DNA of 64,000 nt from Candidatus Binataceae bacterium (GCA_050011435.1 JBEKJC010000005.1:45941-109940), one strand, 5' to 3'. Shown: positions 33,631 to 50,236, counted from the first letter of the stretch. Notes: a model not told the origin generated them from the sequence alone. Made by a program: numbers and translations.

Positions 33631-35036
33631 CGTGCCCCGAGTCCGCCCGCGCATCGATACGCTGACGGTGATATGGTCTTCACCGCTGGCGTGCCGTTAT
33701 ACTTCGGGCGCGTCAGTTGTGATTCGACGCCGTCATTCAGGGTCGGGGTGTGGCGCAGCCTGGTAGCGCACACGCTTGGGGTGCGTGTGGTCGCCGGTTC
33801 AAATCCGGCCACCCCGACCAACAATAAATCCTTTGTTTTCAAGTAGTTAGTGCACTGACCGCGCGGTCGACCGCCCGCAGGTTCCGGCGATTGTGCCCAA
33901 TTTTGTGCCCTCCCCCCCTCGTAGCCAGAAATATCCGTGTTTTTTGCGGTGCGCTCCAGGGTCGCGATGGCCTCGCGCCGGGCTTGCACGCGGATGTGAG
34001 CGTAACGGCCAAGCATCCGGTCGCTCACGTGCCCGGCCAGTTGCCGGATGGTCTCGACCGACACGGTCGCGTTCTCCGCAAGACGGGTGACGAACGTGTG
34101 GCGCGCATCGTAGAAGCGGCACGTGACCGCGACCTTTCGCCGTGCGGTTTCAAATGCGCTTTTGTAGCTCCACTGACCCATGGGGCGATTCAGGTCCACG
34201 TCCCAGATCAAAGATTTACGGCTGTTGCCTGCCAAACCCACCCGATGAAACGGGAAGACGTAGTTGTCGGGCCCGGTCTCGGGAAAGCGCCCACGCCAGA
34301 TGGTAAGCGCTGCGCAGGCGCGCCTGGTGAGAGGAATGACGCGGCCGGTGCCACCCTCGGTCTTGGATCGCGACACCACGATCTCGCCTTCGCTGATTGC
34401 GCCATCCGTCCAGCGCAGGGCCAGGTCACACCAATGGAGCGCCCGGCTCTCGGACGGTCGCAGGCCCGCATCCAGCGACAACACGAAAAACGGATACAGG
34501 ACCGGCGACGGGCTTGCGGCAATGGCCGCGAGCAGCTTGTCTTCCTCTTCGAACGAAAGAGCGCGTCCGGCATCGGTCCTTTCTCGGAGAAACCGAACTC
34601 GACCGCCAAGGGGCGACCAGCAGTCGCAGTGCTTGAGAATCTGCCTCAACGTCGCCACTTCGCAATTTATGCTTCGAGCGGAGAGCCGCTCGCCAAGGCG
34701 TTTCCTCTGCAGTGCCGCGATATCGTTGATCGTAATATCCGACACCAGCCTGCTACCGAACTCGCGCACGAGCTTGCGCGAATATTGTTCGTAATAAACT
34801 CTGCCGAGGGGTGTGAGGGCGCTTTTGGATGCGAGCCACTCCTTGGTGGCCAGCGCGAATAGGGGCAAGCGTTCACGTTTGGAGATGCGGTTGTAACCCA
34901 ATTCGAGGTCGCGTCGGCGCGCCCGTTCCGCTTCGCGCGCGACGGTCTTCGAGTTGGTTTTTGCCGAGTCCCGTATGAGCTGCCCTTGGAAGAGGAACTT
35001 GAACCAATACGTCTCGCCTCGTTTATAAACGCTCAT
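33543..35036 (-). CDS. int: tyrosine-type integrase (phage integrase family); the ORF has no stop until 33543 and runs antisense through tRNA-Pro
   Basis: N-terminal SAM-like domain (MSVYKRGETYWFKF...). Catalytic R...HxxR (ARHTFVTRL)...H (LAGHVS)...Y (LGRYAH) around residue 345. RBS GAGAGAGG before ATG 35036. The functional C-terminus is probably well upstream of 33543. Confidence 0.85.
   Translation of the reverse strand: MSVYKRGETYWFKFLFQGQLIRDSAKTNSKTVAREAERARRRDLELGYNRISKRERLPLFALATKEWLASKSALTPLGRVYYEQYSRKLVREFGSRLVSDITINDIAALQRKRLGERLSARSINCEVATLRQILKHCDCWSPLGGRVRFLRERTDAGRALSFEEEDKLLAAIAASPSPVLYPFFVLSLDAGLRPSESRALHWCDLALRWTDGAISEGEIVVSRSKTEGGTGRVIPLTRRACAALTIWRGRFPETGPDNYVFPFHRVGLAGNSRKSLIWDVDLNRPMGQWSYKSAFETARRKVAVTCRFYDARHTFVTRLAENATVSVETIRQLAGHVSDRMLGRYAHIRVQARREAIATLERTAKNTDISGYEGGRAQNWAQSPEPAGGRPRGQCTNYLKTKDLLLVGVAGFEPATTRTPSVCATRLRHTPTLNDGVESQLTRPKYNGTPAVKTISPSAYRCAGGLGARQAFFLAATRGRHWKKDRKSMAKVHAFRG
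33590..33635. repeat. 3' end of the SDR gene; a second copy lies at 48283-48335
   Basis: CGGGTCGCGGCCAAGAAAAAGGCCT is identical over 25 nt, and the flanking TTCCAATGG...GACGT is also similar. Confidence 0.7.
33744..33820 (+). tRNA. tRNA-Pro (anticodon GGG), 77 nt including CCA
   Basis: Folded manually: 7-bp acceptor CGGGGTG/CACCCCG, D-arm GCGC-AGCCTGGTA-GCGC, anticodon arm CACGC-TTGGGGT-GCGTG, T-arm GCCGG-TTCAAAT-CCGGC. Confidence 0.85.
33891..33911. repeat. arm-type-like direct repeat TGTGCCCAATTTTGTGCCCT just inside the left end of the island; a second copy lies at 61086-61106
   Basis: A 20/21-nt exact repeat found near both island ends in the same orientation. It contains an internal GTGCCC-N6-GTGCCC direct repeat. 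Confidence 0.6.
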
Positions 35037-35418: not shown

Positions 35419-36117
35419 TTATATGGCGGATTGGTTCGCGAGGTAGCCGAGCTGGACCAGGCGGACGCCGGCAGCCTCAGCCGAGACGAAGAACGCCTCG
35501 CTGACGCGTTGCTTCAGATCTGTCGCCCTGGTCGATTGGGCCGGCAGGGGTGCAACGTCGATTGTGCCAAGGCAAGCCTCGGCGACCAGCTTCAAACGGC
35601 TGATCGGCATCAGCAGAGCTCCGGCCGCGTAGCTCGCCTGCCATTCCATCCAGTCTACCTTGGGCCGCAGCGCGAGCGTCTCGTCGCCCGTGCAGTGCTG
35701 CTCCTGGCGCCTTGCTATCGCCGCTTTTTGATAAAGCGGATTGTGCACGCAAACGTGCACATATTCGTGGGCCAGCGTGAAACGACAACGATGCACGCCC
35801 CTGGCGTCCTCATGAAGCGCTCGGGCGATTCGGACCTCCGGTTTTCCCGGCGGATCGAAGAAGGTGACGCCCAGCAGCCCCTCCGCGACCTTGGTCAGAT
35901 CGGCGTAGAGGTTGAGTTCCCGGGCGTCGCGCTCGATTAGCTTGATGAGCGCGCCGGTCGGCACCGGCACGGTGATCTGGCCGTAAAGTTCGTTCAGAAA
36001 CTCGAACAGGATACGCTCGCAGCATTCATCGAGGTAGGCTCGCGTATACCAGGGACGGCGGCGGAAGCGCCCGGTTGTGTCGTGTATCCACTCAACCTCG
36101 AGATCTTCCTCGCTCAT
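35419..36117 (-). CDS. ImmA/IrrE-family metallo-endopeptidase
   Basis: TLAHEYVHVCVH is the HEXXH motif. DUF955-like, and paired with an XRE HTH gene. Confidence 0.8.
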   Translation of the reverse strand: MSEEDLEVEWIHDTTGRFRRRPWYTRAYLDECCERILFEFLNELYGQITVPVPTGALIKLIERDARELNLYADLTKVAEGLLGVTFFDPPGKPEVRIARALHEDARGVHRCRFTLAHEYVHVCVHNPLYQKAAIARRQEQHCTGDETLALRPKVDWMEWQASYAAGALLMPISRLKLVAEACLGTIDVAPLPAQSTRATDLKQRVSEAFFVSAEAAGVRLVQLGYLANQSAI

Positions 36118-36440
36118 CGCTTCTTCCCCTTGGCCTTGAGCTCCTTGCGGAAAGCGCGATAGGCGGCGAGTACCTGCTCCTCGCCGGCTTCCTTGGGCTG
36201 GATATCGGACGGCACTTTGCCGGCGACGAAGTAGAGCAGGTCGGCTTCGAGGTCGAGTTCCCTGGCGAACTGCTCGATGAGATAGCCACGCGGCGGATGG
36301 CGCAGATTGTGTTCGAGGTCGTTCAGGTACGGCGCCGATATTGGTCGCCCGTCTTCCATCTTGATGCGCGCCGCGAATTCGCGCTGAGTTAGCTTCGCGC
36401 GCTTGCGTCCCTCCGCAATCAGCTCTCCGAAGGTCTTCAT
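36114..36440 (-). CDS. XRE-family HTH transcriptional regulator (ImmR-like)
   Basis: FGELIAEGRKRAKLTQREFAARI matches a Cro/C1 HTH. Overlaps immA by 4 nt. Confidence 0.8.
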   Translation of the reverse strand: MKTFGELIAEGRKRAKLTQREFAARIKMEDGRPISAPYLNDLEHNLRHPPRGYLIEQFARELDLEADLLYFVAGKVPSDIQPKEAGEEQVLAAYRAFRKELKAKGKKR

Positions 36441-36716
36441 GTCACGTTGTGGTGTTCCGCGCCTCCTGCGATGGATATTATCGTGCCTGCATGTAGATGT
36501 CACGAGCGGAACCGGCCGCACTCCCGGCATTGAAAGAGAAAGCGCACTTTTTCTCGCGCCGCTCTCTCAACCAAACCTGGAGAGCGGCGCGCAGGTTTTG
36601 CGATGCGCGCGTCGCAGCGCTGCAACCGTGACGAGCCTTGCGGCCGGCCCGCCAGGGCCGGCGGCGCGGTTGCCAGCGGAGCGCGCGCCACCAGTTTTGC
36701 ACGGTCTGCGACAGCC

Positions 36717-37154
36717 TCAGGTGACCCACACCACTTTCAGACCGGCGCGATCCGCGGCCTCACGTTGTCGCGCGTCGGCGGTAGCGAAGGGCAGCGGCGC
36801 TCCGGATTCCATCTGGAGTACCAGCGCAGAGGCGATGTGGAGAGCGTCGAGGGTCCTGACCGGCGTCTGCAGGATCAGCCGTTCGGCGCCTTCCAGCACC
36901 CCTGAGCCGAGTTCGACCAGTTCCCAGTAGGAACGGTCGGCGTTCATTCGGGCGACGATCGTGTCGAAATCTGTCCGGGTCACCTCTCCAGCCCGATATC
37001 GGCGGGCAATCGCGGAGACTGCTTCGACTGGTGCGATAACGGACGACAGCAAGCGATAGCGGCGCATCAGCCGCCGGGCATGAGCGGAGCCGGGATCCTC
37101 GACGTAGCGCTTAATCAGAACACTGGTGTCGAAATAAGCTAATGCCTCCGCCAT
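36717..37154 (-). CDS. vapC: PIN-domain toxin VapC
   Basis: YFDTSVLIK (the acidic PIN Asp) and downstream D/E residues. Overlaps the antitoxin gene. Confidence 0.75.
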   Translation of the reverse strand: MAEALAYFDTSVLIKRYVEDPGSAHARRLMRRYRLLSSVIAPVEAVSAIARRYRAGEVTRTDFDTIVARMNADRSYWELVELGSGVLEGAERLILQTPVRTLDALHIASALVLQMESGAPLPFATADARQREAADRAGLKVVWVT

Positions 37155-37447
37155 CAGCGATCCTCCCGCTCGACGCGAACCGTATCCGAGAGTGGGGCTC
37201 CCGAAATCTTGCGGGGTTTCCATAGCGGTAGCGGGCCGGCTTTGGCGGCGCGGCGCACCAGACCCTGATCGTCGAGGCGCCGAAGCAAATCCGCCGTGGT
37301 TTCCGCCTCCGGACCCGCCGGCGCTTCGATCCGTGTAAGCCGGGCGACCGGGCGACCGCGCTCAGTGAGCACTACCTCGGTGCCACGCCGAACGGCCCGT
37401 ATGAGCCGCGAAAAATTTTGATTCGCTTCGCGCAGTCCAACCCGCAT
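37154..37447 (-). CDS. vapB: Phd/YefM-type antitoxin (VapB)
   Basis: MRVGLREANQNFSRLIRAVRRGTEVVLTERGRPVARL fits a Phd/YefM N-domain. Confidence 0.7.
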   Translation of the reverse strand: MRVGLREANQNFSRLIRAVRRGTEVVLTERGRPVARLTRIEAPAGPEAETTADLLRRLDDQGLVRRAAKAGPLPLWKPRKISGAPLSDTVRVEREDR

Positions 37448-37532: not shown

Positions 37533-40253
37533 TCATCGTCGCAACCCGTGGCCTTGGCAGCGGCGGCGGAGGTTTTGCTCCGCGACGATCCGGACGCCGG
37601 CAAGTGAATTCCTTTGCACGTGTTCCAGAGCCGTGGACTTCTCACGGTTCCGGCTAACAACTTGGCGTAGTCGCTCGTGATCGTCGGTATAAATGCTGAT
37701 GCCGTTCCGGGCGCGGCTGACCGACACGTAGAACTGCTTGCGGTTGATGAGCTCGGCGCTCCGCTCCGTATCGATGTTGACGATGACGCGATCGACAGTC
37801 GTACCCTGGCTTGAGTGGGAGGTCGAGGCGTAGCCGTAGTCGATGTGACGCAGACGCTCAATGGTGGCGTGGATTTCGCGGCCGTCCTCGCCCCGAATCC
37901 TTGCCGTGCGTTCATCGATCGCCAAGATAGTTGCGAACTCACCGTTGGCGAGACCCAGCGTGCGTTCTGGTGCGCGGAACTGAATCCGGTCGCCCGGGGC
38001 GAATTTGCGCTGCTCCGTGCGGAGAACCTCGACCCCGGAAAGCCGCTTCGGTGAATAGTCAAAGCGCCTGCCATCGTTCAGTACCACCGAGAGTCGTCCG
38101 GCGTCGGAGTCCACGCGCTCTACCACCGCGTGAGCGCCCTTCTCTATCCCCAACCTCTTGCTGCCGCGCGTGAATCGCACGATGTCGCCTACGTCGTAAT
38201 TTCGAGCTTGTCCGCGCTGACTGCGGGTCAGGTCGCGATTTACGAACACGGTGTGCAACACCTCGCGGCAATCGATCATCCCGCGTTCCTTCAGCGTCTG
38301 CCGGATGACGGCATTGAGTTGGCGCCGTTCCTCGTTGGCCGGACTTACCACTAAGACGCGTTCCCGCGCACCATGGGCTGCGACGTATTCCGCGGCGATC
38401 GACGCGTAGCGCCTGACGGTATCGCCAAGCTCTCGGATTCGACCGAATCGTTCCAGGATGTCGATCGACTCGGCGATCTCTCCGTTCGCCGCGTGGTTAA
38501 CCGCTTTGCGCAGTTCGGGATCGCGCTGGCGGCGAATCACGTCGAGCCGGGCGACCCGCATGCCGGCCTGCTGCATCTGATAGAGCGGCCGTCCCGCCTC
38601 GATCGCATGATGCTGGCGCTGGTCGCCGACGAAGACAATCCGCACAACGCCCGCGTCGCGAGCCTTGCGCAAGAGGCCGTTCACTTGTCCGGTCCCGAGC
38701 AGGCTCGATTCATCGATGATCCAAAGCTCTTTGCCTTGTGCTTCTGGTATTGGATTCTCGATGAGGCTCGCGACGGTGCGGGCAGAGATCCCCGCGTCGC
38801 CGAGCGCCTTAACGGCACGCGTCGTTGGCGCGAATCCTTGCACGGCATAACCGTAATCCTCGGCGAACTCCCGAATCGCCCCAACCGTAGTGGTCTTCGC
38901 CGCTCCCGCGCGTCCCTCGACCGCACTGATCCAGTCGTTCGCGGTCACTGTTAGCTCCGCGACCTCGGCCTGATCGGAGAGCAGCCCTCGTCGTGCAGCC
39001 CACGCGCGAACCTCGTTTGCACTTGCGATACTTTGCGCGCCATCCCGACCAACCAGCATCAGATCTAGATTCTCGCGTTCAAGCGCCACCATCTGCGGTG
39101 TCGTGAAAGCGCCCTGCGGCGATCTGACGGTGGCGCCAATCTGGATCAGATTGGCGGCTCGTTCCCATCCATCCGCAACACTCCGCACCTGCTCAAGGTC
39201 CGCCCTGCCCATCGCATGCTGGAGTGCGGTCGCCTCGATTGCGCGGCGGTCGATCACCGCTTCGCGTTCGGTGTGGTGCGCGACGCTGTATTCGAGCGCA
39301 TCGTCTATCGAGGCCTTACTTCGCTCTGGCACTGGTTGGAGATTCGTGAGCGGCCGGGCCAGTTCGATTCGATATTCGTGTGCGCGCTCGCGCCATTCCG
39401 CCTTGAGGCTCTCTTCGTCGCGACGGTCCTTGGGGCACCTGGTCTGATGGGCGAGGTTCTGTGCGGCAGCGGCACCGTTTAGTCCCTGACGCGCCATCGC
39501 CGCCTCGATGTCCTGGCGCCGGCGCGAAAATGCCATCACCTGCTCGCGAGTGTATCCCGCAAGCTCCCAGCGGCCATCTGCGCCAGTCACATCGATCCGA
39601 TAGCCGAGATCTTGCACTTTAAGCGCAAGCTCCGAACGGTACACGCTGGTCGCGAAACTCTGCGAGCGGTAGATCTCGATCGGATCGAGCCCGCGCCACG
39701 CGCCGTCTGGGCGCCTCGTCATGTTGGCGATCACGACGTGGGTGTGGAGGTGCGGGTCGGGGCCGTAGCCGTCGTCAGCGCCCTGTGAAGGTCGCGCGGC
39801 GATGTGGTCGAAGCGGGCCGCGACGACGTTTCCGGTGATCACCCATTCGTGCCCGCCGTGCTGGCGCGATAACGCATAGCCCTCAAGTTCGGTAAGAGCG
39901 CGACTCACGGCGTTGCGATGCGCCTCCGCGAGCCGCGCGTCGCTGCCAACCAACGCCTGCACGCTTACCGACTTGGGCGCGTTGAAGGTTGCATCCCATC
40001 CGGCGCGGCGTTCGTCGCTGCCCCTGGCGTTTGGAACCAGCACTTCGCCGGTCGCCGGATTAAGCCCGTGCAATACGGCGCGAAAATCATCTGACGAAAC
40101 CTCTTCCGCGAGTCCGAGCGCTTCCCCTCCTCGACCGCACCACTGTCCGGCAACCCGGTGCTGCTCGGTGTAGTAGTCGTCCTGGGAGTATTTTTCCTGG
40201 TAATAGGTCTCCGCCTGTTTGGCGCTGAGCGCGCCTTTCGACATGACCAGCAT
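37533..40253 (-). CDS. MobF-family conjugative relaxase (TrwC/TraI-like relaxase plus RecD-like helicase)
   Basis: Relaxase N-domain (AETYYQEKY...DYY, with HTHVVIAN as the His triad). C-terminal AAA_30/UvrD-like helicase (GRAGAAKTT, ViVFVGDQRQ). Confidence 0.9.
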   Translation of the reverse strand: MLVMSKGALSAKQAETYYQEKYSQDDYYTEQHRVAGQWCGRGGEALGLAEEVSSDDFRAVLHGLNPATGEVLVPNARGSDERRAGWDATFNAPKSVSVQALVGSDARLAEAHRNAVSRALTELEGYALSRQHGGHEWVITGNVVAARFDHIAARPSQGADDGYGPDPHLHTHVVIANMTRRPDGAWRGLDPIEIYRSQSFATSVYRSELALKVQDLGYRIDVTGADGRWELAGYTREQVMAFSRRRQDIEAAMARQGLNGAAAAQNLAHQTRCPKDRRDEESLKAEWRERAHEYRIELARPLTNLQPVPERSKASIDDALEYSVAHHTEREAVIDRRAIEATALQHAMGRADLEQVRSVADGWERAANLIQIGATVRSPQGAFTTPQMVALERENLDLMLVGRDGAQSIASANEVRAWAARRGLLSDQAEVAELTVTANDWISAVEGRAGAAKTTTVGAIREFAEDYGYAVQGFAPTTRAVKALGDAGISARTVASLIENPIPEAQGKELWIIDESSLLGTGQVNGLLRKARDAGVVRIVFVGDQRQHHAIEAGRPLYQMQQAGMRVARLDVIRRQRDPELRKAVNHAANGEIAESIDILERFGRIRELGDTVRRYASIAAEYVAAHGARERVLVVSPANEERRQLNAVIRQTLKERGMIDCREVLHTVFVNRDLTRSQRGQARNYDVGDIVRFTRGSKRLGIEKGAHAVVERVDSDAGRLSVVLNDGRRFDYSPKRLSGVEVLRTEQRKFAPGDRIQFRAPERTLGLANGEFATILAIDERTARIRGEDGREIHATIERLRHIDYGYASTSHSSQGTTVDRVIVNIDTERSAELINRKQFYVSVSRARNGISIYTDDHERLRQVVSRNREKSTALEHVQRNSLAGVRIVAEQNLRRRCQGHGLRR

Positions 40254-40256
40254 CGC

Positions 40257-42083
40257 TCATGCCCGAAGGCGCCTGCTCGACGGCGCCTGCTGACTGGTGG
40301 GAGCCTTGGTTAGCCGCTCGCCCGGTAACCGGAGATTGCCGGCCGGCATCGACGCTGCGCTTTGATCGCTGGACTGCGCCGCCATCACCCGGCGCATGAA
40401 ACCCGGATGGCGCTTGATCGGGGCGAGATACGGAATCGTGACCCGCGCCCGGTGATGGCCGGTGACGCAGAGATAGCCCTCGAACGGTTGCAGCATCTGA
40501 ATCTCGCTGCCAAGCACGGAGCTCTCGATGATGCGCTGCGGATGAACGGAGAAGCTGTCGCGGTGCTCCTTCAGGCCGGTGTTGCTTCCGATCTGCGAGC
40601 GGCTGATTTCGCGCTCGCCGATCTGCGCGCTCGACCAGCGTGCGGTCTCGGCCTCGCCGGTGCGCAGGATTAGCTTGGTCGCCGGCGCCGCGGCGAGCGT
40701 CGCGGTCTGCTCGTGGCCGTAGATCGCGCGCAGCTGGGTGATCGCCTGAAACCCCAGCACCGCGCACAGTCCGCGCTTGCGCCCGCGCACGACCAACGCT
40801 TCGAACTGGCTCTGGCGTTTCAGTACCGGCAACTCGTCGGCGACGATCCAGACCTGCTCGCGCCGCTCCTGTTCTGCCATCAGCCGGCGCACGATGCAGT
40901 CGAGCCACACGCTCTGCAGCGGCAACGCCGCGTCGCGCGAGTCCTCGGTCGAAGTCAAAAACAGCCATCCCTCCCGCGCCTGCGCCCATTCGAGCGCGCT
41001 CCACGCCCACTCGGTCCCGCTCGGCAGATAGCGGAGCGAGTTGGTCGCGTTGAAGGCCGTCGCGACGATTCCCGCCCCCTGATCGTGCGCACCGGGATCG
41101 ATGAGCGCTTCTGCCGGCGTGCCCCGCAGCGCCTCCTTGAGTTTCGCTCTTGGCAGGGCGAGCAGCTTCGGGATGTCGCCGGGCTCGCGCGACCTGACGC
41201 TCTCAAGCAGCCCGACGATCAGCGTCCGCGCCGATTGCCGAAAGAAGAAGTCGGCGCCGCTCTGGCTGAACATGTTGGACGGGTCAGGGATGAGCGCCGC
41301 CGCCAGCGCCTCGGCGTCCATCGCCTCGCTGCCGGGCTTGAGCTCCCACCACGGCGACCATGCCGGGCAGCGCGCATCGAGCGGGTTCAGGATCAGGTCG
41401 CGGCGCGCGTGCCGGAAGAACTCGGGGAGGTATTCGCACTCCGGGTCGAGCACCACGGCGGTTTCGCCGCGCGCCTCGATCTGCCGTAGCATGCGGCGGA
41501 TGGCGGTGGATTTTCCAGAGCCGGGCGCACCCACGAACATGAAGTGCTGGGGCTCCAACGTCCGCTGGATACGAATGCCGCCGATCTCGACGCCGTTGCC
41601 CTGAAGCTCGTGACGCAGGCGGCGCTGCGGGACAACGTCGGTCCCGCGCACATAGCGGTCGTCGGTATGGTCGCGTCTGGGCCTAAAGAGGATCAGGCCG
41701 ATCCCGACGACGGTAATCGCCGTGACCAGAAAGCCCCACGGCGCATAGTGCCAGAACCAGCCGGGGAACGAACCGCCGGAGTAGTACTTGTAGCAGAGGA
41801 ACGGGTACATGCTCGGGATGGTGTAGCGCCCGCCGCGGTAGGGCACCGAGCCGAACGGCAAAGGGATGATCTCGCTGAAGAACCAGGTCAGAATCCAGAG
41901 TCGGAAGTGACGTTGAGCGGCCGCGCCGCCATAGTAACCGGTCCAGTACCAGACCAGACCGAACGTCAGGGCCGCCCACACCAGCGTCATCACGACCGCG
42001 ACTCGCGCCGCCATCTGCGTCCACAGCGCGAGCGATGCGCCGTCCGACCGCCATCTGATCGCCCGGTAAACACCCGCGCTCAT
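40257..42083 (-). CDS. type IV coupling protein (TraD/TrwB/VirD4 family)
   Basis: N-terminal TM helices. Walker A FVGAPGSGKST. TraD/TraG-like core. Confidence 0.9.
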   Translation of the reverse strand: MSAGVYRAIRWRSDGASLALWTQMAARVAVVMTLVWAALTFGLVWYWTGYYGGAAAQRHFRLWILTWFFSEIIPLPFGSVPYRGGRYTIPSMYPFLCYKYYSGGSFPGWFWHYAPWGFLVTAITVVGIGLILFRPRRDHTDDRYVRGTDVVPQRRLRHELQGNGVEIGGIRIQRTLEPQHFMFVGAPGSGKSTAIRRMLRQIEARGETAVVLDPECEYLPEFFRHARRDLILNPLDARCPAWSPWWELKPGSEAMDAEALAAALIPDPSNMFSQSGADFFFRQSARTLIVGLLESVRSREPGDIPKLLALPRAKLKEALRGTPAEALIDPGAHDQGAGIVATAFNATNSLRYLPSGTEWAWSALEWAQAREGWLFLTSTEDSRDAALPLQSVWLDCIVRRLMAEQERREQVWIVADELPVLKRQSQFEALVVRGRKRGLCAVLGFQAITQLRAIYGHEQTATLAAAPATKLILRTGEAETARWSSAQIGEREISRSQIGSNTGLKEHRDSFSVHPQRIIESSVLGSEIQMLQPFEGYLCVTGHHRARVTIPYLAPIKRHPGFMRRVMAAQSSDQSAASMPAGNLRLPGERLTKAPTSQQAPSSRRLRA

Positions 42084-42487
42084 TGCTTCGCCTCTTGCGC
42101 GCCGTCGAGGTGCGCGAGGTACTGACGAGCGGTCTGCTCCGAGGCTTCGATGATTTCGTCCACCATGTTTGCCCCCACGGTCTGGTCGAGCGAATGGAAA
42201 AGCGCCGAGCGGCTCTTGACCACTTCGAACAGGAGCTGGCCGTAACGCTCGGCCTCCGCCTGCTCCAGGCGCTCGAACCCCTTCCTGAGCGCCTCCAGTT
42301 TTCCGCCGAGCGCAGCGAGGGACGCGGTATCGGCGCCGCCCTGACCGGCGAGATCGAAGTGCTGTGCGATCAGCGATTGAAGCAGGGTGGTCGGCGTTGC
42401 GTTCATGCTCGCCGCGTGGTTCTCGACTTGCGCGGCATATTTCTCCGGGAGCCGGATCGTGTAGGTTTTCTTCGTCTCATCCGCCAT
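42080..42487 (-). CDS. ribbon-helix-helix relaxosome accessory protein (MobC/TraY-like)
   Basis: KKTYTIRLPEKYAAQVENHAASMNATPTTLLQSLI fits an RHH fold. Sits immediately upstream of T4CP and the relaxase, with the repeat region just 5'. Confidence 0.55.
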   Translation of the reverse strand: MADETKKTYTIRLPEKYAAQVENHAASMNATPTTLLQSLIAQHFDLAGQGGADTASLAALGGKLEALRKGFERLEQAEAERYGQLLFEVVKSRSALFHSLDQTVGANMVDEIIEASEQTARQYLAHLDGAQEAKQ

Positions 42488-42505
42488 GTTGCTCAACCTC
42501 CTGCC

Positions 42506-42664
42506 TGCAAGCAGCGCCGAATCGGATGCTTGCATTGAGAAATCAAGGGGTTTTTCATTCCACCGCTGGCTCTCTGACTCTTTGCAAGCACGTCACGAAT
42601 CCGCCTGCTTGCATAATGAAATCGCGGGATTTCCCGCTTTCTGCGCCCGCCGTGCTGCAAGCAG
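42506..42664. promoter_or_regulatory. candidate oriT / mob promoter region with reiterated inverted repeats
   Basis: Two tandem units of TGCAAGCA-N13/15-TGCTTGCAT-(t/a)a(g/t)aAAATC-GGG, plus a further CTGCAAGCAG. They lie immediately upstream of the RHH-T4CP-relaxase operon. Confidence 0.45.
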
Positions 42665-42878
42665 CCTTCATCAAGGGATGAGTGACGTGTCATACATTCC
42701 CCACGTGCGAGGTCCTTAGCCGAGCACGTCCCCGGATGCCTAACACCTCGCCTGAAGCTCGGGCGGTGGCAGAACGGCGTTGCCGCGAAGCTGGATGCTC
42801 TCGGCAATATGTGCCGGGCCCCTCGAGAACTGACTGCCACAGATGACGGGCGCATCGTCGCCGACTCAGAAAATCCCG

Positions 42879-43202
42879 CTAGTACGGGAGCAGGTAGTTG
42901 AGGAGCTTGACCGCTTCGATGGCAGCCGCCATCCCGAGCCCGGCCTTAAACAGCCGACGGCCGAGTTCGCAGTTGCCCAGGATTCCGAAAATGAGGAATG
43001 CGACAGTCAATGCGAAGGCCAGGAACGCGGGCGCAATCGCTCCGCTCAGAAGCGCCGCGATCGTGTTGAGCGGCTGGTCCCAGGGAAGCGCTCCCGGCTG
43101 AACGGGTCCCGCCACAGAGAGCGCTGGCCGAGCGATCACGAGCACCACTGCCAAAGTGCCTTCACCGACATGCCTTGAAAATGGTTTCATCGGTTTTCTC
43201 AC
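42879..43202 (-). CDS. TrbC/VirB2-family conjugative pilin
   Basis: ~105 aa with a leader followed by two hydrophobic helices (AIAPAFLAFALTVAFLIFGILGN...GMAAAIEAVKLLNYLL). Confidence 0.65.
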   Translation of the reverse strand: MRKPMKPFSRHVGEGTLAVVLVIARPALSVAGPVQPGALPWDQPLNTIAALLSGAIAPAFLAFALTVAFLIFGILGNCELGRRLFKAGLGMAAAIEAVKLLNYLLPY

Positions 43203-44182
43203 CGCGCCCAGATTGTGCAGCCGACAAATTGGTCCATCTTGCCCGCCTGCATGTATGCAGTTTTAATAGCAGCCAATCAAAAGCAACGCAAGCAACCCAC
43301 GTGGGATTTTGCGGCGCGTGTCGGCCTTTCGTTCGTTGCTGGACACGCTAGATTTGGTGCACCGATCAATGCGACCGCGGTAAATCTTGCAAGAGCGCCT
43401 GTGGCTATCTTGGCCTGCCCTCCCGAAAACGCCCGCGACTTGAAGTTGAGTCCGTCACTGAGAGAAGACGGACGAATGAAAGGTCGCGAGGCGCTCCCGT
43501 CTTGCGACTCCTGACCGTTGACCCTGGAATGATCACGACCGGACGTGAATGCAAGGGCCCCGCAGACAGCGGAATTGAGATTAGGCCCTCCGTCGCGCTC
43601 GATATGGACCCCTCACGGGCGAGCCCATCCATGATGATTTTAGACTATCGCAGCCTCGTCGCGCCGTACGCTGAGATGTTCTCTGCGCAGCGCGCAGCCA
43701 TGCGATAGACTTCGGGATTTCAAACTGGCGCGGAGGTTCGTCAACGCGATGAATTTGAAAGACAGAAGTAACAAAAGCTCCAGGAAGTATCCCTGTGCGG
43801 GGGCGGTCAGGCTGGCTCTGCGAAGCCGAACAGTTTTTCCTGCGCTCGCCACTCCTGCATCTCGACGCGTTCGGATTCCGTCCAACAGCATTCCGAAAGA
43901 GTTAAAACTGCTGTTTCGTGAACCGATATTCAACCGTCAATCTGATCTGACGAGTCTCCGCGCACCGCTGTGACGCGCTGATTTCAATACAGTCGGCGCC
44001 TTCGGGGTCGTTGCCGACCTTAAATGATCATGGACCAGGAGGTTTATCTGGCAAGTGTCCTCCAGGAGCAGCATTCTGTAGAACGCCTGATAGAAGTGGC
44101 CTCGCAATTTTGAACAGTGCGATAAGTGGAAACTCCGGGCCACAAGTCTGGCCGAAGCAGGCTGGGCAAGAAGGAGTTTGCG

Positions 44183-44500
44183 ATGGTCAAGAAATCCGGG
44201 CGGCGGACACGCCGCACGCACACGGCGGAGTTCAAGGCGCGCGTAGCGTTAGCGGCGTTGCGCGAGGACCAGACGCTGGCCGAGCTGGCTGCGCAGTTTG
44301 AGATTCATCCCAACCAGATTACGGACTGGAAGCGGCAATTGCTCGAACATGCGGCCGAGGTTTTCGGGACCACGCAGCCGGCGCCCGTTGTTCTGGCGCC
44401 GCTACATGCCAAGATCGGGCAGCAGGCGCTGGAGCTGGATTTTTTAGCACGCGCGCTCGCAAAGCGGGCGGGCTGGGCGCCAAGCTATGATCGACCGTAA
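44183..44500 (+). CDS. IS3-family transposase OrfA (HTH)
   Basis: [53 protein letters not shown]. Confidence 0.85.
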
Positions 44501-45317
44501 GCACCGTTTGTCGGTAACGCGCCAAGCCAGCCTGCTGGGCCTCAGCCGGGGGTCGGTGTATTACCTGCCGCAACCCACCAGCGCCGCCGATTTGGCGCTG
44601 ATGCGGCGGCTGGATGAGCTGCATCTGGAGCATCCCTTCATGGGCGCGCGGATGCTGCGCCGCCAGCTCCTGGCCGAGGGCATCCGGGTCGGCCGGCGTC
44701 ACGTACGGACGCTCATGCGGCGCATGGGCATGGAGGCTTTGTGTCCGCAGCCTGGCACCAGCCAGCGCCAGCCGGACCATAAGATCTATCCCTATCTGCT
44801 ACGCCAGTTAGCCATCACCCACGCGAATCAGGTCTGGGCGCTCGACACGACGTACATCCCCATGGCGCGCGGGTTTGTTTACCTCACCGCCGTAGTGGAT
44901 GTAGCCAGCCGCCTGGTGCTGGCGCACAAGGTGGCCATCACGCTGGAGGCGTGCCATGCCAGGGAGATTATCGAACAGGCCTTTGCGTGCTTTGGAGTGC
45001 CCGCGATCGTCAACACCGATCAGGGCAGCCAGTTCACGGCGGAGGAGTTCACCCAGGCCGTGCGCGCTCGCGGCTGCCAGCTCTCCATGGACGGGCGCGG
45101 CGCATGGCGGGACAACGTGTTCATCGAACGCCTGTGGCGCAGCGTGAAATACGAGTGCGTGTACCTCAAGGCCTATGACGGCGTGAGCGCGGCGCGCGCC
45201 GACATCGGCCACTATATGGACTGGTTCAACACCGACCGGGCGCATTCGCGGCTCAATGGCGCCACGCCCCAACAGGCCTATCTGGCCTTGGCGGCAACAC
45301 TGGAGGAGGCCGCCTAG
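44487..45317 (+). CDS. IS3-family transposase OrfB (DDE integrase core)
   Basis: WALDTTYI...[10 protein letters not shown] and [12 protein letters not shown] (rve domain). It overlaps orfA and is probably expressed as an OrfAB fusion by a -1 frameshift. Confidence 0.85.
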
Positions 45318-45451
45318 CATGAAATCCGTGGTGCGCCCCGAGTTGCCCACCGCGGCGGCCGGTCCGTCGCAAGCGCCGCCCGCCGCCGTGGACAACTCTG
45401 CACCTCGCTCAACCCGCCCGGAACCCACTTATAAATCGGGGAAAACTGTTC

Positions 45452-45973
45452 AAAGAACCGGGACCACTTCTGATCGAGCGATCTGCCGATCGCGAATGCG
45501 CCGTGGCCGCGCACCACCACTGAGCACGATTGCCTCAGCGCCGCGGCAATCGCGGTCGGCTCTTCACCGATGCCCAGGCCAAGCACCGTAGTATCCACGA
45601 TGGGAATCCGCTTCAGACCGGCGAGCCCTTCATTATGAATTGGGAGGATGTGGTCATCGCATGAAATCTGAGCAAGTGCGATCGCGTGAATTGGATGTGC
45701 ATGCACGATCGCGAGCGCTTCAGTGGCGTCGTATATTGCACGGTGCAGTGGGCTTTCACACGAGGCCTCGGGGGGTATCGGCAGGCCTTGCGAGATGTCG
45801 ACATGAATGAAATTGGATTCGAGCAGTTGACCGAGGTTGGCGCCAGTCTGTGTGATCAGAAACCGTTCGCCGTCCCGAATGCTGATATTTCCACTTCGCG
45901 TAGTTTGCAGCCGACGGTTATAAAGTTCCTTGCCAACCGCGATTAACTGCGCCGAATATTCGCCATTACTCAC
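45452..45973 (-). pseudogene. class II aldolase/adducin-family gene, 3' end truncated by the IS3 insertion
   Basis: The N-terminal ~167 aa match class II aldolase (VVVRGHGAFAIGRSL). The reading frame then runs into the IS right terminal repeat at ~45451, so the native C-terminus is missing. Confidence 0.5.
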
Positions 45974-46166
45974 GCGGTGATCTCCTACTGCGCTATCATC
46001 TTCAACGCTCAGCGAAACTGATGACCTCGACGGTGTGCTCTGCAGAAAACGACATTTTCATCCGAGCGCGCCGGCCCTGTGCAAGCGTCCCGCACGATTA
46101 ATACATGATTCTGTAGAGTCGGAGCCATTAACATAAAGTTAACCATTACGACCCGCCTCGGAAGAT

Positions 46167-46695
46167 TCACCGCTGACTTGCGCAAATCACGTTTACCGCG
46201 CCGCTCAAATCCGGCACGCGCCAATCAGCCGGATCAGCGTGGTTGTATGGGCGGTCGAGAATTATCGATTTGCAGCCTGCGCTGCTTCCAGCGCACGAGT
46301 CTTTCCACGTGTCGCCAACGATGTACGACGCTTTAAGAGCAAGGTCGTATTTGTGCGCCAATTCGACCAGCATCCCAGGGCTGCGGCTTGCGACAGCGGC
46401 AACCATCATCATTGTCGTGGGGACAGATGCGTACTTCCTCGATCTTGAGAAGGCTTAAAATACGCTCCGTCATCATGCACAGTGATTCTTTCGTCAGGAG
46501 ACCCCGCGCCAGTTCCGGCTGGTTCGTGACCACGAAAAGCTTGAATCCCCCAGTGCTCAGTCGGTCAAGCGCCGGCTCAACTCCTGCTTCGAACTCGAAC
46601 TCCCCGATGTTTCTGGGTGACGTGGGCTTGCCATCTCGATAGATGACTTTGTTGATCACTCCGTCGCGATCCAGAAAGACAGCCGTATTAGGCAT
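46167..46695 (-). pseudogene. second GmhB-like HAD-IIIA heptose-bisphosphate phosphatase, frameshifted at CCC/GGG run 46374-46380
   Basis: The N-terminal part (MPNTAVFLDRDGVIN...CPHDNDDGCRCRKPQP) is in one frame. The C-terminal part (SPGMLVELAHKYDLALKASYIVGDTWKD) is in another. Removing one C restores CRKPQPGML. Confidence 0.55.
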
Positions 46696-46959
46696 CAGAA
46701 TCCGCATTTTCAATGAAATCAGGAGCTCAACAACCATTTGAGGAGTCTGACCGGGGTAGGTCAAGTTAAAATTGCCAAGCGCCGGCAGCCAAGCCCGCGT
46801 GTCGAACCGCGTCGCCCGTTGGCGGATAGTCGCTTTGGGCCGGCACACTCCAAGCAGAGAGGACCAGCGGCGGGGCCAGAATGAGGATGGCGCGATCCCC
46901 GACTATTAATTATTAATGATGATGGAGAGAGATCGTGAACAGGCGGTGGTCCTGAGGCC

Positions 46960-48261
46960 ATGACTCATCGTGGACGAATCCTTGCCGATCGGATCATCGC
47001 GGCTCCGGTCGCTTTTCTGTTCAATGGCGTTGCGCGGATTCTGGGCGCACTAATGCGAAGAGACCATTCAATCGCGCCGTCCAACGTCAACCGGATCGTG
47101 GTCGCGAAACTCATCGGTATGGGAAGCATTCTCCAGGCCACGCCGCTGCTGAAGGCGCTGAAGCATCAATACCCGCATGCCCGATTAACGTTCGTGACAA
47201 TGCGATCGAACCGGGAGTTCCTGGACCGGCTCCCCGCCGTTGACGAAGTACTCACGCTCGACGACCGAAATCTCGTGGTGATGACGATAACGACGCTCCA
47301 GACAATTGTCGGGCTCATTCGGCAGCGTGCTGATCTGTACTTTGATTTAGAGGTATATTCCGCTTTCGCGTCGCTGCTGGCACTTTGGGCAGTGACGCGC
47401 AACCGGCTGGGGTTTTACCGACATAGCGTCGCCTTCAAAAATGGAATCTATACCCACCTGGTGTACTTCAACACTCGGATGCCGGTCCGTCAGTTGTACC
47501 TTCAGTTGGGACGAGTGGCCGGAGTTCCGCCGAGCCAACCGGAGAATATTGGACCGATACACATTGAGGAAGCCGATCGGTCATCTGTTCTCGCGGTTCT
47601 GTCTCAAAATACAGGATGGCACTCAGATCAAGCGTACATAGTGGTCAACCCGAACGCATCGGATCTGTTATTGGAGCGACGATGGCCCGTCGAGTATGTA
47701 GTCGAAGCCGTCACGAAGTTGGTCTCGCTAGGACATCAGGTGGCATTCATTGGAGCGCGCAGCGAGCTTCCGTATGTACAGAGTTTATTCGATCGCTTCC
47801 CGGCGGAGGTGCAAGTGCGCGTGGCAAATACCGCCGGGCGGCTGACACTGGGCGAGATGTTGGCGCTGTTGGACGGGGCCGCGTGCGTGCTTACCAACGA
47901 TAGTGGCCCGATGCACATGGCGGTCGCACTCGAGCGCCCGACAGTATGCCTATTCGGGCCAGCCAACCCCGAGCATTACGGTCAGGAATTGCCCAACGTC
48001 GCAATTTTCTACTCCCCGGTATTTTGCAGTCCGTGCCTTTACGAGGCCGATCAGCCTCCTTGCGGTGGCAACAACATCTGCATGCAGCGAATTAAGCCGG
48101 AGCCGGTAGTGCAATCGGTACTGCGGCTGCTCGGCATCCCGAATGCCGGTGCACAAGTACCTGCGCGGCCGGTTGCTTCCCCAGTCATCAGTGATGCGCC
48201 GGACGGCCGGCCGCTGGGCCTTGTGATTCGCGCGTCGCTGAGAAGCGATAGCAGAGAGTAG
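46960..48261 (+). CDS. glycosyltransferase family 9 (LPS heptosyltransferase-like)
   Basis: IVVAKLIGMGSILQATPLLKALK and TNDSGPMHMAVAL...CLFG are GT9 signatures. Confidence 0.8.
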   Translation: MTHRGRILADRIIAAPVAFLFNGVARILGALMRRDHSIAPSNVNRIVVAKLIGMGSILQATPLLKALKHQYPHARLTFVTMRSNREFLDRLPAVDEVLTLDDRNLVVMTITTLQTIVGLIRQRADLYFDLEVYSAFASLLALWAVTRNRLGFYRHSVAFKNGIYTHLVYFNTRMPVRQLYLQLGRVAGVPPSQPENIGPIHIEEADRSSVLAVLSQNTGWHSDQAYIVVNPNASDLLLERRWPVEYVVEAVTKLVSLGHQVAFIGARSELPYVQSLFDRFPAEVQVRVANTAGRLTLGEMLALLDGAACVLTNDSGPMHMAVALERPTVCLFGPANPEHYGQELPNVAIFYSPVFCSPCLYEADQPPCGGNNICMQRIKPEPVVQSVLRLLGIPNAGAQVPARPVASPVISDAPDGRPLGLVIRASLRSDSRE

Positions 48262-48282
48262 TGCCTCACCGTAGTAATTGTT

Positions 48283-48335
48283 CCAGTCCAATGGGCGGGT
48301 CGCGGCCAAGAAAAAGGCCTCGCCTGACGTTCGGG
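48283..48335. repeat. relic copy of the SDR gene 3' end (pairs with 33590-33635)
   Basis: A 25-nt identical core plus similar flanks. It lies 22 nt after the GT9 stop and marks the junction between the mobility module and the lower-GC cargo. Confidence 0.7.
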
Positions 48336-48344
48336 AAATCGCCC

Positions 48345-49985: not shown

Positions 49986-50194
49986 TGGATAATGCTCCAG
50001 GGCTTACAAAACGCATAAAACCTTTCTGCCACCAGAATTCTGTGTTATCGAGTCATACCGGCGCGACCTCGAGCCTGATAAGCGCCCCGCCTTCCAATTC
50101 GCCAATGGCACCGCCCCCCTCCGCCCTCACGCGTTAACGCCGGTCCAGTAATGTCATATAATGTGTGAACCTGCCATAAGAGGCAAGTCGGTTC

Positions 50195-50236
50195 AGCTGG
50201 GTAGTGGGCGGTTTTAAAACCGCCCACTACCCAGCT
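50195..50236. repeat. 42-bp perfect palindrome AGCTGGGTAGTGGGCGGTTTT|AAAACCGCCCACTACCCAGCT
   Basis: Exact 21+21 inverted repeat in the 1.1-kb divergent intergenic region between 49985 and 51130. Confidence 0.9.

What the first reader, a model, noticed from the sequence alone, without database searches (positions are those of the whole stretch)
37533..43202. Mobilisation genes without a mating-pair apparatus: decayed ICE or integrative mobilizable element
A MobF relaxase, T4CP, RHH protein and TrbC/VirB2 pilin are present. No VirB4, VirB6, VirB8-11 or other T4SS genes follow. Instead there is ~900 bp of apparently non-coding DNA (43203-44110) and then an IS3 element. Either the T4SS was deleted, or this element is mobilised in trans.
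Basis: partly seen in the sequence, partly recalled or inferred. Interest (0 to 1): 0.5.

Follow-up and report, generated by a model that had tools for sequence, protein, structure and literature searches.

The report
Mobilizable island keeping a lone pilin
This is an integrated mobile element that carries the DNA-processing half of a conjugation system plus one pilus-subunit gene but no secretion channel, so it most likely borrows the mating machinery of a related self-transmissible element. It belongs to a common, apparently undescribed family in uncultured soil bacteria (Binataceae).

Summary
A MOBF/TrwC relaxase, a TrwB-type coupling protein, an RHH-like protein and a TrbC/VirB2-like pilin lie on the minus strand at 37,533-43,202. 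No other T4SS gene is found in the island or the window.

The IS3 did not remove a T4SS. It is a clean insertion, with a 5-bp duplication, into a cargo aldolase gene whose 3' end fills part of the "non-coding" gap.

The genes sit in a 27.5-kb island at tRNA-Pro, bounded by a 48-nt direct repeat and encoding an intact tyrosine integrase.

Twenty-five related Binataceae loci share the module pilin-(DUF2274)-oriT-RHH-T4CP-relaxase. Twenty-one lack every other T4SS gene. Two copies delimit a ~9-kb element, and a third has a housekeeping gene about 550 bp upstream of the pilin. Four are full ICEs in which the pilin is the last gene of the T4SS operon.

This is therefore an integrative mobilizable element of a family derived from such ICEs, most likely mobilised in trans.

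The unusual feature is the pilin. It is retained in every assessable IME, under purifying selection, exchanged like a cassette, and always lacks the 5-residue C-terminal tail present in all ICE pilins.

The parts
33744..33820 (+). tRNA-Pro(GGG), the integration target. Its 3' 48 nt (33773-33820) form attL.
   Evidence: ARAGORN, Rfam tRNA at 64 bits, direct-repeat family D8.
61236..61283 (+). attR: a 48-nt copy (47/48) of the tRNA-Pro 3' end, marking the far end of the 27.5-kb island.
   Evidence: 0 of 100 shuffles gave two matches.
33892..33911 (+). 20-nt motif TGTGCCCAATTTTGTGCCCT, repeated exactly at 61086-61105. In the excised circle the two copies would flank the att core. Inferred to be integrase arm-type sites.
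33543..35036 (-). Tyrosine integrase. The ORF runs through the att core: 497 aa as integrated, 427 aa in the reconstructed attP form.
   Evidence: Pfam Phage_integrase 2.4e-16. 57-62% identical to the integrases of IMEs L011, L015 and L020. attP reconstruction.
35419..36530 (-). Regulatory pair: Xre-type HTH (36114-36440/36530) and an ImmA/IrrE-type M78 peptidase (35419-36117).
   Evidence: Pfam. Homologs detected in 20 of the 25 related loci.
36717..37447 (-). Phd/YefM antitoxin (37154-37447) and PIN toxin (36717-37154/37223). Inferred to be a stability module.
   Evidence: Pfam. JGI gene calls.
37533..40253 (-). MOBF (TrwC-type) relaxase-helicase. The YY...YY and HxH motifs and the helicase Walker A/B motifs are intact.
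   Evidence: dN/dS 0.15-0.18 against L001-L003.
40257..42083 (-). Type IV coupling protein (TrwB/VirD4 type). Walker A is GAPGSGKST and Walker B is IVADE.
   Evidence: dN/dS 0.16-0.18.
42080..42535 (-). RHH-like relaxosome accessory protein, in the TrwA position.
   Evidence: Sequence. 2 of 5 RHH-position proteins scanned hit RHH_1 and 1 hits NikA-like. Homologs detected in 22 of the 25 related loci.
42540..42735 (-). Candidate oriT. It has an inverted repeat ACGTGC...GCACGT (about 42701-42731), then the invariant block GACACGTCACTCA (42679-42691), then four TGCAAGCA/TGCTTGCA motifs.
   Evidence: 12-sequence alignment of IMEs and ICEs in which the 13-nt block is invariant. Sequence. The nic site is inferred, not shown.
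42879..43202 (-). Lone TrbC/VirB2-like pilin gene (103-107 aa), followed by a terminator-like hairpin at 42875-42894.
43247..43305 (.). Outermost DNA shared with related IMEs. It includes the palindrome CTGCATGTATGCAG, 45 nt upstream of the pilin start. It may be an operator or promoter, or the old element edge.
   Evidence: blastn against L019, L003 and L001..
43937..45973 (-). Class II aldolase gene, split by the IS into a 3' part (43937-44091) and a 5' part (45470-45973).
44092..45469 (+). IS3-family element of about 1,378 bp, flanked by the 5-bp duplication CTGAT (44087-44091 and 45470-45474).
   Evidence: Pfam HTH_Tnp_1 and rve. Ends and duplication.
45974..61235 (.). Low-GC (50-58%) variable segment: GT9, PMT_2-like and GT87 glycosyltransferases, a methyltransferase, and two paralogous 723/741-aa proteins. 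It contains no conjugation genes.
   Evidence: Homologous pieces lie at the same tRNA-Pro locus without mob genes in L034, and are absent in L032.

Best explanation
The region is the mobilisation core of an integrative mobilizable element (IME) inserted at tRNA-Pro. It is a member of a Binataceae-wide family that derives from MOBF/MPF-T-like ICEs.

Shown:
- The element has its own integrase and att sites, an Xre/ImmA-type regulatory pair, a toxin-antitoxin pair, a conserved oriT-like region, an RHH accessory protein, a T4CP and a relaxase.
- It has no VirB3-VirB11 genes.

Inferred mechanism:
- After derepression the integrase excises the island as a circle.
- The relaxase, with the RHH protein, nicks at the conserved oriT.
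- The element's own T4CP docks the relaxase-DNA complex onto the T4SS channel of a co-resident related ICE, which supplies VirB4, VirB6, VirB8-11 and a TraF-like peptidase.
- In the recipient the element re-integrates at tRNA-Pro.

The lone pilin gene is inherited from the ICE layout, where it is the last T4SS gene, next to oriT. It has been kept as a working accessory gene. Its role is not known. The most likely role is to modify or supplement the helper's pilus.
For: Gene identities.

No T4SS genes:
- Pfam on all island ORFs >=100 aa.
- tblastn with T4SS proteins of four related ICEs hits only the pilin in the window.
- In the IME loci the same proteins hit only the pilin and DUF2274: pilin in 20 of 20 assessable loci, DUF2274 in 16.

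Island ends: a 48-nt repeat (47/48) of the tRNA-Pro 3' end, plus a 20-nt motif on both arms.

A relative with 82-85% identical flanks has the site without the IME.

Family:
- 25 loci were found. Copies at different genomic sites share only about 7.2-9.0 kb.
- L013 and L014 delimit an 8.97-kb element: HTH-M78-pilin-DUF2274-RHH-T4CP-relaxase-integrase.
- In L002 ilvD lies about 550 bp upstream of the pilin.
- Several copies occur per MAG.

Related full ICEs:
- L009 carries VirB4, TrbL, VirB8, CagX, TrbI, an S26 peptidase, VirB11, the TrbC pilin, DUF2274, RHH, T4CP and the relaxase. L010 (by homology to these T4SS proteins), L016, L022, L035 and L036 are also full ICEs.
- An IME and an ICE occur in the same MAG twice: L003 with L009, and L007 with L010.

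The 13-nt oriT core is identical in IMEs and ICEs.

Purifying selection: T4CP and relaxase omega is 0.15-0.18. Pilin omega is 0.20-0.44 at unsaturated dS.

The IS3 is a clean insertion in a cargo gene.
Against: - No transfer, excision or helper dependence has been observed. All hosts are uncultured.
- Only 64 kb of this genome is visible, so the presence of a helper ICE in this organism is unknown.
- IME/ICE co-residence rests on MAG binning.
- The identical island, including the IS, is seen on at least 21 metagenome contigs. That shows stable inheritance, not recent movement.
- The outer ends of most related elements could not be fixed by att repeats. T4SS genes more than 10 kb away in those loci are therefore not strictly excluded.
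- The pilin of an IME is only about 30-45% identical to the pilin of the co-resident ICE, which may be too divergent for co-assembly.
Confidence: 0.75

Rival explanations
1. It is an immobile fossil: a decayed ICE remnant that no longer excises or transfers, with genes that only look intact.
For: There is no T4SS. An IS3 sits in the island. The same configuration occurs on at least 21 contigs. Some relatives are clearly decayed: L019 has a truncated T4CP and relaxase and a stop codon in the pilin, L018 has an IS in the relaxase, and L038 is fragmented.
Against: All mob and int ORFs are full length with catalytic motifs. The att repeats are 47/48 identical. dN/dS is 0.15-0.3 for RHH, T4CP and relaxase. 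The family is multi-copy and sits at many different integration sites (tRNA-Pro, Asn, Arg, SeC, Leu). The IS interrupts cargo, not transfer genes.
Confidence: 0.12
2. This particular element was a full ICE until recently, and its T4SS was deleted next to the pilin by the IS3 or another local event.
For: The pilin is followed by 734 bp without recognisable genes and then by an IS. In ICE relatives the T4SS lies exactly on that side of the pilin.
Against: The IS has a 5-bp target duplication, and its removal restores the aldolase ORF exactly. No VirB-like remnants with E<1 occur in 43203-46000. The nearest relatives (T4CP 81-84% identical: L001, L002, L003) have no IS3 there and also lack a T4SS upstream of the pilin.
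Confidence: 0.03
3. It is an IME mobilised in trans, but the pilin gene is only a linked leftover with no role. It is kept because it lies next to oriT and perhaps carries the promoter.
For: The pilin's position is explained by the ICE gene order. Recently derived mobilizable plasmids are known to retain a few MPF genes (PMC9185392). Pilin omega (0.2-0.44) is higher than for T4CP and relaxase. A terminator-like hairpin separates the pilin from the mob genes.
Against: The ORF is detectable in 20 of 20 assessable IME loci across three subfamilies whose synonymous sites are saturated. At least 15 of these ORFs are intact; L019 carries a stop codon, and several others show frameshifts that may be assembly errors. 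114 of the 120 best database homologs are of the tail-less form seen in IMEs. Where the neighbouring genes are close (dS 0.6-0.9), the pilin has been replaced by a different but still intact allele (dS 1.5-2.7). Every IME pilin stops at the same position and lacks the tail of the ICE pilins.
Confidence: 0.3
4. The 27.5-kb att-bounded segment is a composite. It consists of a ~9.5-kb IME (33.8-43.3 kb) plus an older, unrelated island or chromosomal segment (43.3-61.2 kb) that is not part of the IME proper.
For: Homology to related IMEs ends at 43,305. GC drops from about 62% to 50-58% beyond 46 kb. The aldolase is a chromosomal neighbour of tRNA-Pro in L032. In L034 the big paralogs sit at that locus with only an integrase remnant. 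A 26-nt copy of the SDR gene end lies inside the island.
Against: No internal att copy or remnant occurs between the pilin and the aldolase. Both ends carry the same 20-nt arm motif matching one integrase system. L034 shares both arms with the window island.
Confidence: 0.35

Closest known systems
Dtr module of plasmid R388 (oriT-trwA-trwB-trwC; MOBF)
   Same: The order and the proteins match: RHH accessory protein, TrwB-type T4CP and TrwC-type relaxase-helicase, with oriT directly upstream. The relaxase matches TrwC (1omh) at 1.2e-47 and the T4CP matches TrwB (1e9r) at 1.9e-38. The candidate oriT has a hairpin followed by a conserved block, as in MOBF oriTs. That comparison rests on my own knowledge of R388.
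   Different: The element is chromosomally integrated with its own integrase. No Trw/VirB channel genes are present. The candidate nic-region sequence (GACACGTCACTCA) is unrelated to that of R388. The closest plasmid relaxases are only 38-39% identical (Acidobacteriaceae plasmids).
IMEs that encode their own relaxase and coupling protein and recruit a helper's MPF (type I of Guedon et al. 2017, PMC5704250)
   Same: An integrase, a relaxase and a T4CP are present and no MPF is. The predicted dependence on a helper conjugative element is the same. Several copies occur per genome. The element is integrated at a tRNA gene.
   Different: Those IMEs are not reported to carry a pilin. The review lists relaxase, relaxosome proteins, CP, VirB5, VirB6, VirB8 and exclusion proteins as IME-encoded conjugation proteins. 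Here a VirB2/TrbC gene, and usually a DUF2274 gene, is a constant part of the module. The host phylum (Binatota) has no described conjugative elements in the library searched.
SGI1 and GISul2-type islands that encode a few MPF subunits and reshape the helper's mating apparatus (PMC5389848, PMC5704250)
   Same: This is a precedent for a mobilizable island carrying its own versions of helper T4SS subunits that replace the helper's.
   Different: The SGI1 subunits are TraN, TraH and TraG (MPF-F type), and GISul2 has TrbJ, K and L. None is the major pilin. SGI1-type islands rely on the helper's T4CP. No replacement has been shown here.
RP4 TrbC pilin and TraF maturation peptidase
   Same: Same Pfam family (TrbC/VirB2): a signal peptide and two hydrophobic helices. 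The related ICEs encode an S26 TraF-like peptidase just upstream of the pilin.
   Different: IME pilins end at the conserved Pro-Tyr/Phe and lack the 5-residue tail (S/A-P-x-x-F) of the ICE pilins. IMEs encode no TraF. Whether the tail is the part removed during cyclisation, as in RP4, is my inference from general knowledge and was not tested.
ICEBs1-type ImmR/ImmA regulation
   Same: An Xre-type HTH repressor gene is paired with an M78 (ImmA/IrrE) metallopeptidase gene beside the integrase.
   Different: This is only a domain-level resemblance. Neither function nor inducing signal was tested.

Membership tests
Integrative mobilizable element (IME) | Integrated in the chromosome, bounded by att repeats, with its own site-specific recombinase. 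| tested here: met
   48-nt repeat (47/48) at 33773-33820 and 61236-61283, with the tyrosine integrase next to tRNA-Pro. A relative with homologous flanks lacks the element.
Integrative mobilizable element (IME) | Carries oriT and/or relaxase (DNA-processing functions). | tested here: met
   TrwC-type relaxase with intact motifs. A conserved oriT-like region is present, but the nic site was not demonstrated.
Integrative mobilizable element (IME) | Lacks a complete mating-pair formation system (no VirB4 or channel genes). | tested here: met
   Pfam on island ORFs. tblastn with related ICE T4SS proteins.
Integrative mobilizable element (IME) | Transfer depends on a helper conjugative element. 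| not testable with these tools
   Only indirect evidence: related ICEs with the same oriT core occur in the same lineage and in the same MAGs.
Integrative conjugative element (ICE) | Encodes VirB4, a T4CP, a relaxase and a set of MPF proteins. | tested here: not met
   Only the T4CP, the relaxase and one MPF protein (the pilin) are present.
MOBF relaxases (TrwC/TraI) | N-terminal TrwC domain with paired catalytic tyrosines and a histidine triad, plus a C-terminal SF1 helicase. | tested here: met
   Pfam TrwC covers positions 1-285 of 286 at 2.5e-82, with AAA_30 and UvrD_C_2. The motifs ETYYQ...DDYYTE and HLHTH, and Walker A/B, are visible in the sequence. PDB TrwC and TraI hits.
VirD4/TrwB coupling proteins | N-terminal transmembrane segments and a TrwB-type nucleotide-binding domain with Walker A/B. 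| tested here: met
   TrwB_AAD_bind 4.9e-90 and TraG-D_C. GAPGSGKST and IVADE motifs and a hydrophobic N-terminus.
TrbC/VirB2 T4SS pilins | Sequence membership in PF04956. | tested here: inconclusive
   The window copy scores 23.0 bits against a cut-off of 27.9. 17 of 17 family members hit at E<=0.01, the best at 7e-14. It is a full-length homolog of an ICE pilin that scores 36.9 bits. The family profile hits PDB 9vf4_c at E 0.004.
TrbC/VirB2 T4SS pilins | Encoded within a T4SS operon and assembled by it. | tested here: not met
   No T4SS genes adjoin it in the window or in 20 IME loci. In the ICE relatives it is the last gene of the operon.
TrbC/VirB2 T4SS pilins | C-terminal extension removed at maturation (RP4-type, TraF-dependent). 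| tested here: not met
   The IME pilins stop at ...LLPY...APF or ...VP. The ICE pilins continue with S/A-P-x-x-F. That this tail is the processed part is an inference.
IS3 family | Overlapping orfA (HTH) and orfB (DDE rve), terminal inverted repeats, and a 3-5 bp target duplication. | tested here: met
   HTH_Tnp_1 and rve/rve_3. Imperfect inverted repeats AAGTGG...TTTGAACAG. CTGAT duplication and exact restoration of the target ORF.

The most novel reading that the evidence does not exclude
The tail-less pilin is an active piracy factor. IMEs of this family carry an exchangeable pilin cassette whose product enters or replaces the pilus of the helper ICE's T4SS. Because it is already 'trimmed', it would do so without the helper's TraF-type maturation step. 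The effect would be to change mating specificity, escape exclusion or pilus-targeting phages, or favour IME transfer over ICE transfer. This would be the first case of a mobilizable element supplying the major pilin to a helper's conjugation machine.
Probability: 0.25. Interest if true: 0.65.

Novelty: new variant of a known kind. Interest (0 to 1): 0.45.

Why it matters
IMEs are thought to outnumber ICEs but are poorly catalogued, and nothing is described for the soil phylum Binatota. The library search found a single paper holding both 'Binatota' and 'conjugative'.

This family gives a clean natural series: a full ICE, then a ~9-kb IME, then an IME with cargo. The cargo includes envelope glycosylation-type genes here, and a mer operon and RHS toxins in relatives.

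The series shows which parts of a conjugation system a parasite keeps: oriT, accessory protein, relaxase, T4CP and, unexpectedly, the pilin.

The strict link between 'no T4SS' and 'pilin without C-terminal tail' is a concrete, testable lead on pilin maturation and on how mobilizable elements manipulate their helpers.

For annotation pipelines it is a caution. A lone VirB2 hit beside a relaxase and a T4CP is not evidence of a broken ICE.

Tried and rejected
- VirB remnants in 43203-46000. tblastn with all T4SS proteins of L009, L010, L016 and L022 gave only chance-level hits (E>1), apart from the pilin.
- Internal att remnant between the pilin and the aldolase. Local alignment against attL and attR found nothing beyond 16-23 nt chance matches.
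- att repeats in the relatives. No 16-mers of the tRNA were found elsewhere in the loci, and no shared 10-mers at the homology break-points. Element ends there rest on homology break-points only.
- First reading of the IS ends (TGAACAG...CTGTTCA, 44111-45452) gave no target duplication and suggested a deletion. This was wrong. Aldolase homologs showed that the IS is longer and has a CTGAT duplication.
- Pfam extension test of three possible aldolase C-termini was inconclusive: 117-120 bits for all three.
- Exact-sequence look-up of the flanking SDR protein found nothing on record.
- orf121 (35033-35398) as an excisionase: no Pfam hit and no similarity to the HTH_17 genes upstream of the integrases in L039 and L040.
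- Rfam on the island found only the tRNA.
- The Pfam survey of 96 flanking ORFs of the IME loci lists only the top 25 families. It was therefore backed up by tblastn with ICE T4SS proteins.
- A weak TrbI-like tblastn hit outside the island (22781-23197, E 3.8e-4) was not pursued.


Full report
**What is there.** On the minus strand the window encodes the following:
- A 107-aa TrbC/VirB2-like protein at 42879-43202.
- A 340-bp spacer.
- A 151-aa RHH-like protein at 42080-42535.
- A 608-aa TrwB-type coupling protein at 40257-42083.
- A 906-aa TrwC-type relaxase-helicase at 37533-40253.

The relaxase has the paired tyrosines, the HLHTH histidine motif and helicase Walker motifs. It matches TrwC and TraI structures. 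The T4CP has Walker A/B and matches TrwB.

The window's pilin scores below Pfam's cut-off: 23 bits against 27.9. It is nevertheless a full-length homolog of pilins that pass the cut-off. All 17 family members hit TrbC, and the family profile finds a solved TrbC/VirB2 protein.

Downstream lie a Phd/PIN pair, an Xre-HTH/M78-peptidase pair, a small ORF and a tyrosine integrase.

**Island limits.** The integrase abuts tRNA-Pro(GGG) at 33744-33820. The last 48 nt of the tRNA recur, 47/48 identical, at 61236-61283. A 20-nt motif occurs once inside each end. In a circle the two copies would flank the core like arm-type sites; that is an inference.

The genes therefore sit at one end of a 27.5-kb att-bounded island. 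The rest of the island, 45.3-61.2 kb, has lower GC. It encodes glycosyltransferase-like proteins (GT9, PMT_2, GT87), a methyltransferase and two paralogous ~730-aa proteins. It has no conjugation genes.

A related genome (L032) has flanks 82-85% identical to the window's. There the order is luciferase-like gene, aldolase, tRNA-Pro, SDR, with no IME and no glycosylation segment. Another relative (L034) has the big paralogs, both island arms and a 220-nt integrase remnant, but no mob genes. The locus is a hotspot.

How the aldolase came to lie inside the att-bounded segment in the window is unexplained.

**The gap and the IS3.** My first reading of the IS ends gave no target duplication. Full-length aldolase homologs (217 aa) then showed that the gene's last 51 codons lie left of the IS, at 43937-44089.

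Deleting 1,383 bp (44092-45474) restores a 217-aa ORF that is 208/217 identical to an uninterrupted homolog. The IS is flanked by the duplication CTGAT. The IS3 is therefore a simple insertion into a cargo gene and deleted nothing.

The remaining 734-bp intergenic stretch has no similarity (E<1) to any T4SS protein of related ICEs. It also has no att remnant.

**Relatives.** A scan of one genome per species found 25 loci, all in Binataceae MAGs, encoding T4CPs 40-84% identical to the window's.

The module pilin-(DUF2274)-oriT-RHH-T4CP-relaxase is conserved. Four loci (L009, L010, L016, L022) carry a full T4SS immediately upstream. L009 has VirB4, VirB6/TrbL, VirB8, VirB9/CagX, VirB10/TrbI, a TraF-like S26 peptidase and VirB11. 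Its TrbC pilin is the last gene, overlapping the virB11 stop, and is followed by DUF2274, RHH, T4CP and relaxase.

The T4SS proteins of these ICEs hit only each other. In the other 21 loci only the pilin and DUF2274 are found: pilin in 20 of 20 assessable loci, DUF2274 in 16.

Evidence that the T4SS-less loci are compact elements:
- Copies at different genomic sites share only about 7.2-9.0 kb.
- L013 and L014 delimit an 8.97-kb element: HTH-M78-pilin-DUF2274-RHH-T4CP-relaxase-integrase.
- In L002 (T4CP 83% identical to the window's) the housekeeping gene ilvD lies about 550 bp upstream of the pilin.
- Elements sit next to tRNA-Asn, Arg, SeC, Leu or Pro.
- Up to three copies occur in one MAG.
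- In two MAGs an IME and an ICE of the family co-occur: L003 with L009, and L007 with L010. This depends on binning.

In neighbour-joining trees without bootstrap support, ICE L009 nests among the IMEs. This hints at more than one ICE-to-IME transition, or at module exchange.

**oriT.** The spacer between the pilin and the RHH gene holds a hairpin (ACGTGC...GCACGT). It is followed by a 13-nt block, GACACGTCACTCA (window 42679-42691), that is invariant in all 12 aligned IMEs and ICEs. Four TGCAAGCA/TGCTTGCA motifs follow. I take this as the oriT. The nic position and the protein-binding sites are inferred.

**The pilin.**
- *Selection.* IME pilin ORFs are intact in at least 15 loci, with omega 0.20-0.44 where dS is unsaturated. 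A few others carry a stop codon or apparent frameshifts, some of which may be assembly errors.
- *Cassette-like exchange.* In the window's subfamily the RHH, T4CP and relaxase genes differ by dS 0.4-0.9 (omega 0.15-0.31). The pilin differs by dS 1.5-2.7 and dN 0.5-0.7. DNA homology between L002 and L003 starts just after the pilin gene. The pilin allele has been swapped rather than left to decay.
- *The C-terminal tail.* Every pilin in a T4SS context ends ...FPY-(S/A)-P-x-x-F. This covers L009, L010, two L016 paralogs and six database proteins. Two of those proteins were checked and sit in full T4SS operons with TraF (L035, L036). Every IME pilin stops at the conserved Pro or one residue after it. 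This covers the intact pilins of 15 IME loci and 114 of the 120 best database homologs. Three of those homologs were checked and sit in T4SS-less IMEs (L038-L040).
- *A possible origin of the stop.* In the window the stop codon TAG replaces a GAG seen in the decayed relative L019, whose reading continues as PYEPAFL.

By analogy with RP4 TrbC/TraF (my own knowledge), the tail may be the piece removed at cyclisation. That would make IME pilins independent of TraF processing, or unable to undergo it. This is a hypothesis.

**Mechanism.**
- *Shown:* gene content, homologies, att sites, absence of a T4SS, family structure, and the existence of related ICEs with the same oriT core.
- *Inferred:* derepression through the Xre/ImmA-type pair. 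Excision by the integrase. Nicking by the relaxase with the RHH protein. Delivery by the element's own T4CP to a helper ICE's channel. Re-integration at tRNA-Pro. An accessory role for the pilin.

**Comparison with what is known.** The Dtr module works like R388 trwA-trwB-trwC and meets the MOBF and VirD4 criteria tested. The element meets the testable IME criteria and fails the ICE criterion.

IMEs with their own relaxase and T4CP are known, as are islands carrying a few MPF subunits such as SGI1 and GISul2. The 2017 review's list of IME-encoded conjugation proteins does not include the pilin. Loss of MPF genes as the route from conjugative to mobilizable elements is established for plasmids (PMC9185392).

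The nearest sequenced plasmid relaxases (Acidobacteriaceae) are 38-39% identical.

I therefore rate this a new variant of a known kind.

**Caveats.** No function was tested. The hosts are uncultured. Several MAG loci carry frameshifts that may be assembly errors. The trees lack support values. Only 64 kb of this genome is visible.

Noticed in passing
window 33543-35036 (-) with 33773-33820 and 61236-61283: The integrase ORF reads through the att core and the tRNA. It is 497 aa as integrated but 427 aa in the reconstructed circular (attP) form, so integration changes the C-terminus of the integrase.
   Followed up: partly
window 33603-33628 and 48295-48320: An exact 26-nt copy (about 45 nt with gaps) of the 3' end of the chromosomal SDR gene next to tRNA-Pro lies inside the island, just after the GT9 gene. 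No tRNA copy follows it. It suggests an earlier rearrangement or an imprecise excision at this locus.
   Followed up: partly
window 43937-45973, compared with L032, L033 and L034: The aldolase is a chromosomal neighbour of tRNA-Pro in relatives: luciferase-aldolase-tRNA in L032 and Hexapep-aldolase-island in L034. In the window it lies inside the att-bounded segment, between the cargo and the pilin. No single insertion explains this order.
   Followed up: partly
window 54054-56279, 56276-58447, 58739-59050 (-): Two paralogous 741- and 723-aa proteins without Pfam hits, plus a truncated third copy. Their N-terminal 300 nt are 60-88% identical. A homolog in L034 carries DUF6311. They are probably envelope or glycosylation-related membrane proteins.
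   Followed up: no
window 62559-63998 (-), repeats at 63096-63878: A 479-aa ORF without Pfam hits contains 90/93-nt tandem repeats, a W/P-rich repeat protein. It lies just outside the island.
   Followed up: no
window 22496-23227 (-): A weak tblastn similarity (29% over 152 aa, E 3.8e-4) to the TrbI/VirB10 of ICE L022, outside the island. It is probably compositional.
   Followed up: no
L040:4500-8600, L039:1-8267, L015:1-7395: IMEs of the same family lie directly beside a mercury-resistance operon (MerR, MerC-like, mercuric-reductase-like and HMA proteins) or beside giant RHS-repeat toxin genes. This suggests that variable cargo is commonly attached on the HTH/pilin side.
   Followed up: no
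L016:7829-9218: ICE L016 carries three tandem pilin-like genes (118, 119 and 133 aa) around its DUF2274 gene. Two of them have the PYSPxxF tail.
   Followed up: no
L010:7894-9123 and L023:1494-2672: A 93%-identical transposase-like ORF (about 293-410 aa) is inserted between DUF2274 and oriT in an ICE (L010) and in an IME (L023) from different MAGs.
   Followed up: no
window 43411-43483: A 76-nt stretch in the pilin-aldolase intergenic region is 79% identical to L013:520-593, far from that locus's IME. It may be a small dispersed repeat.
   Followed up: no
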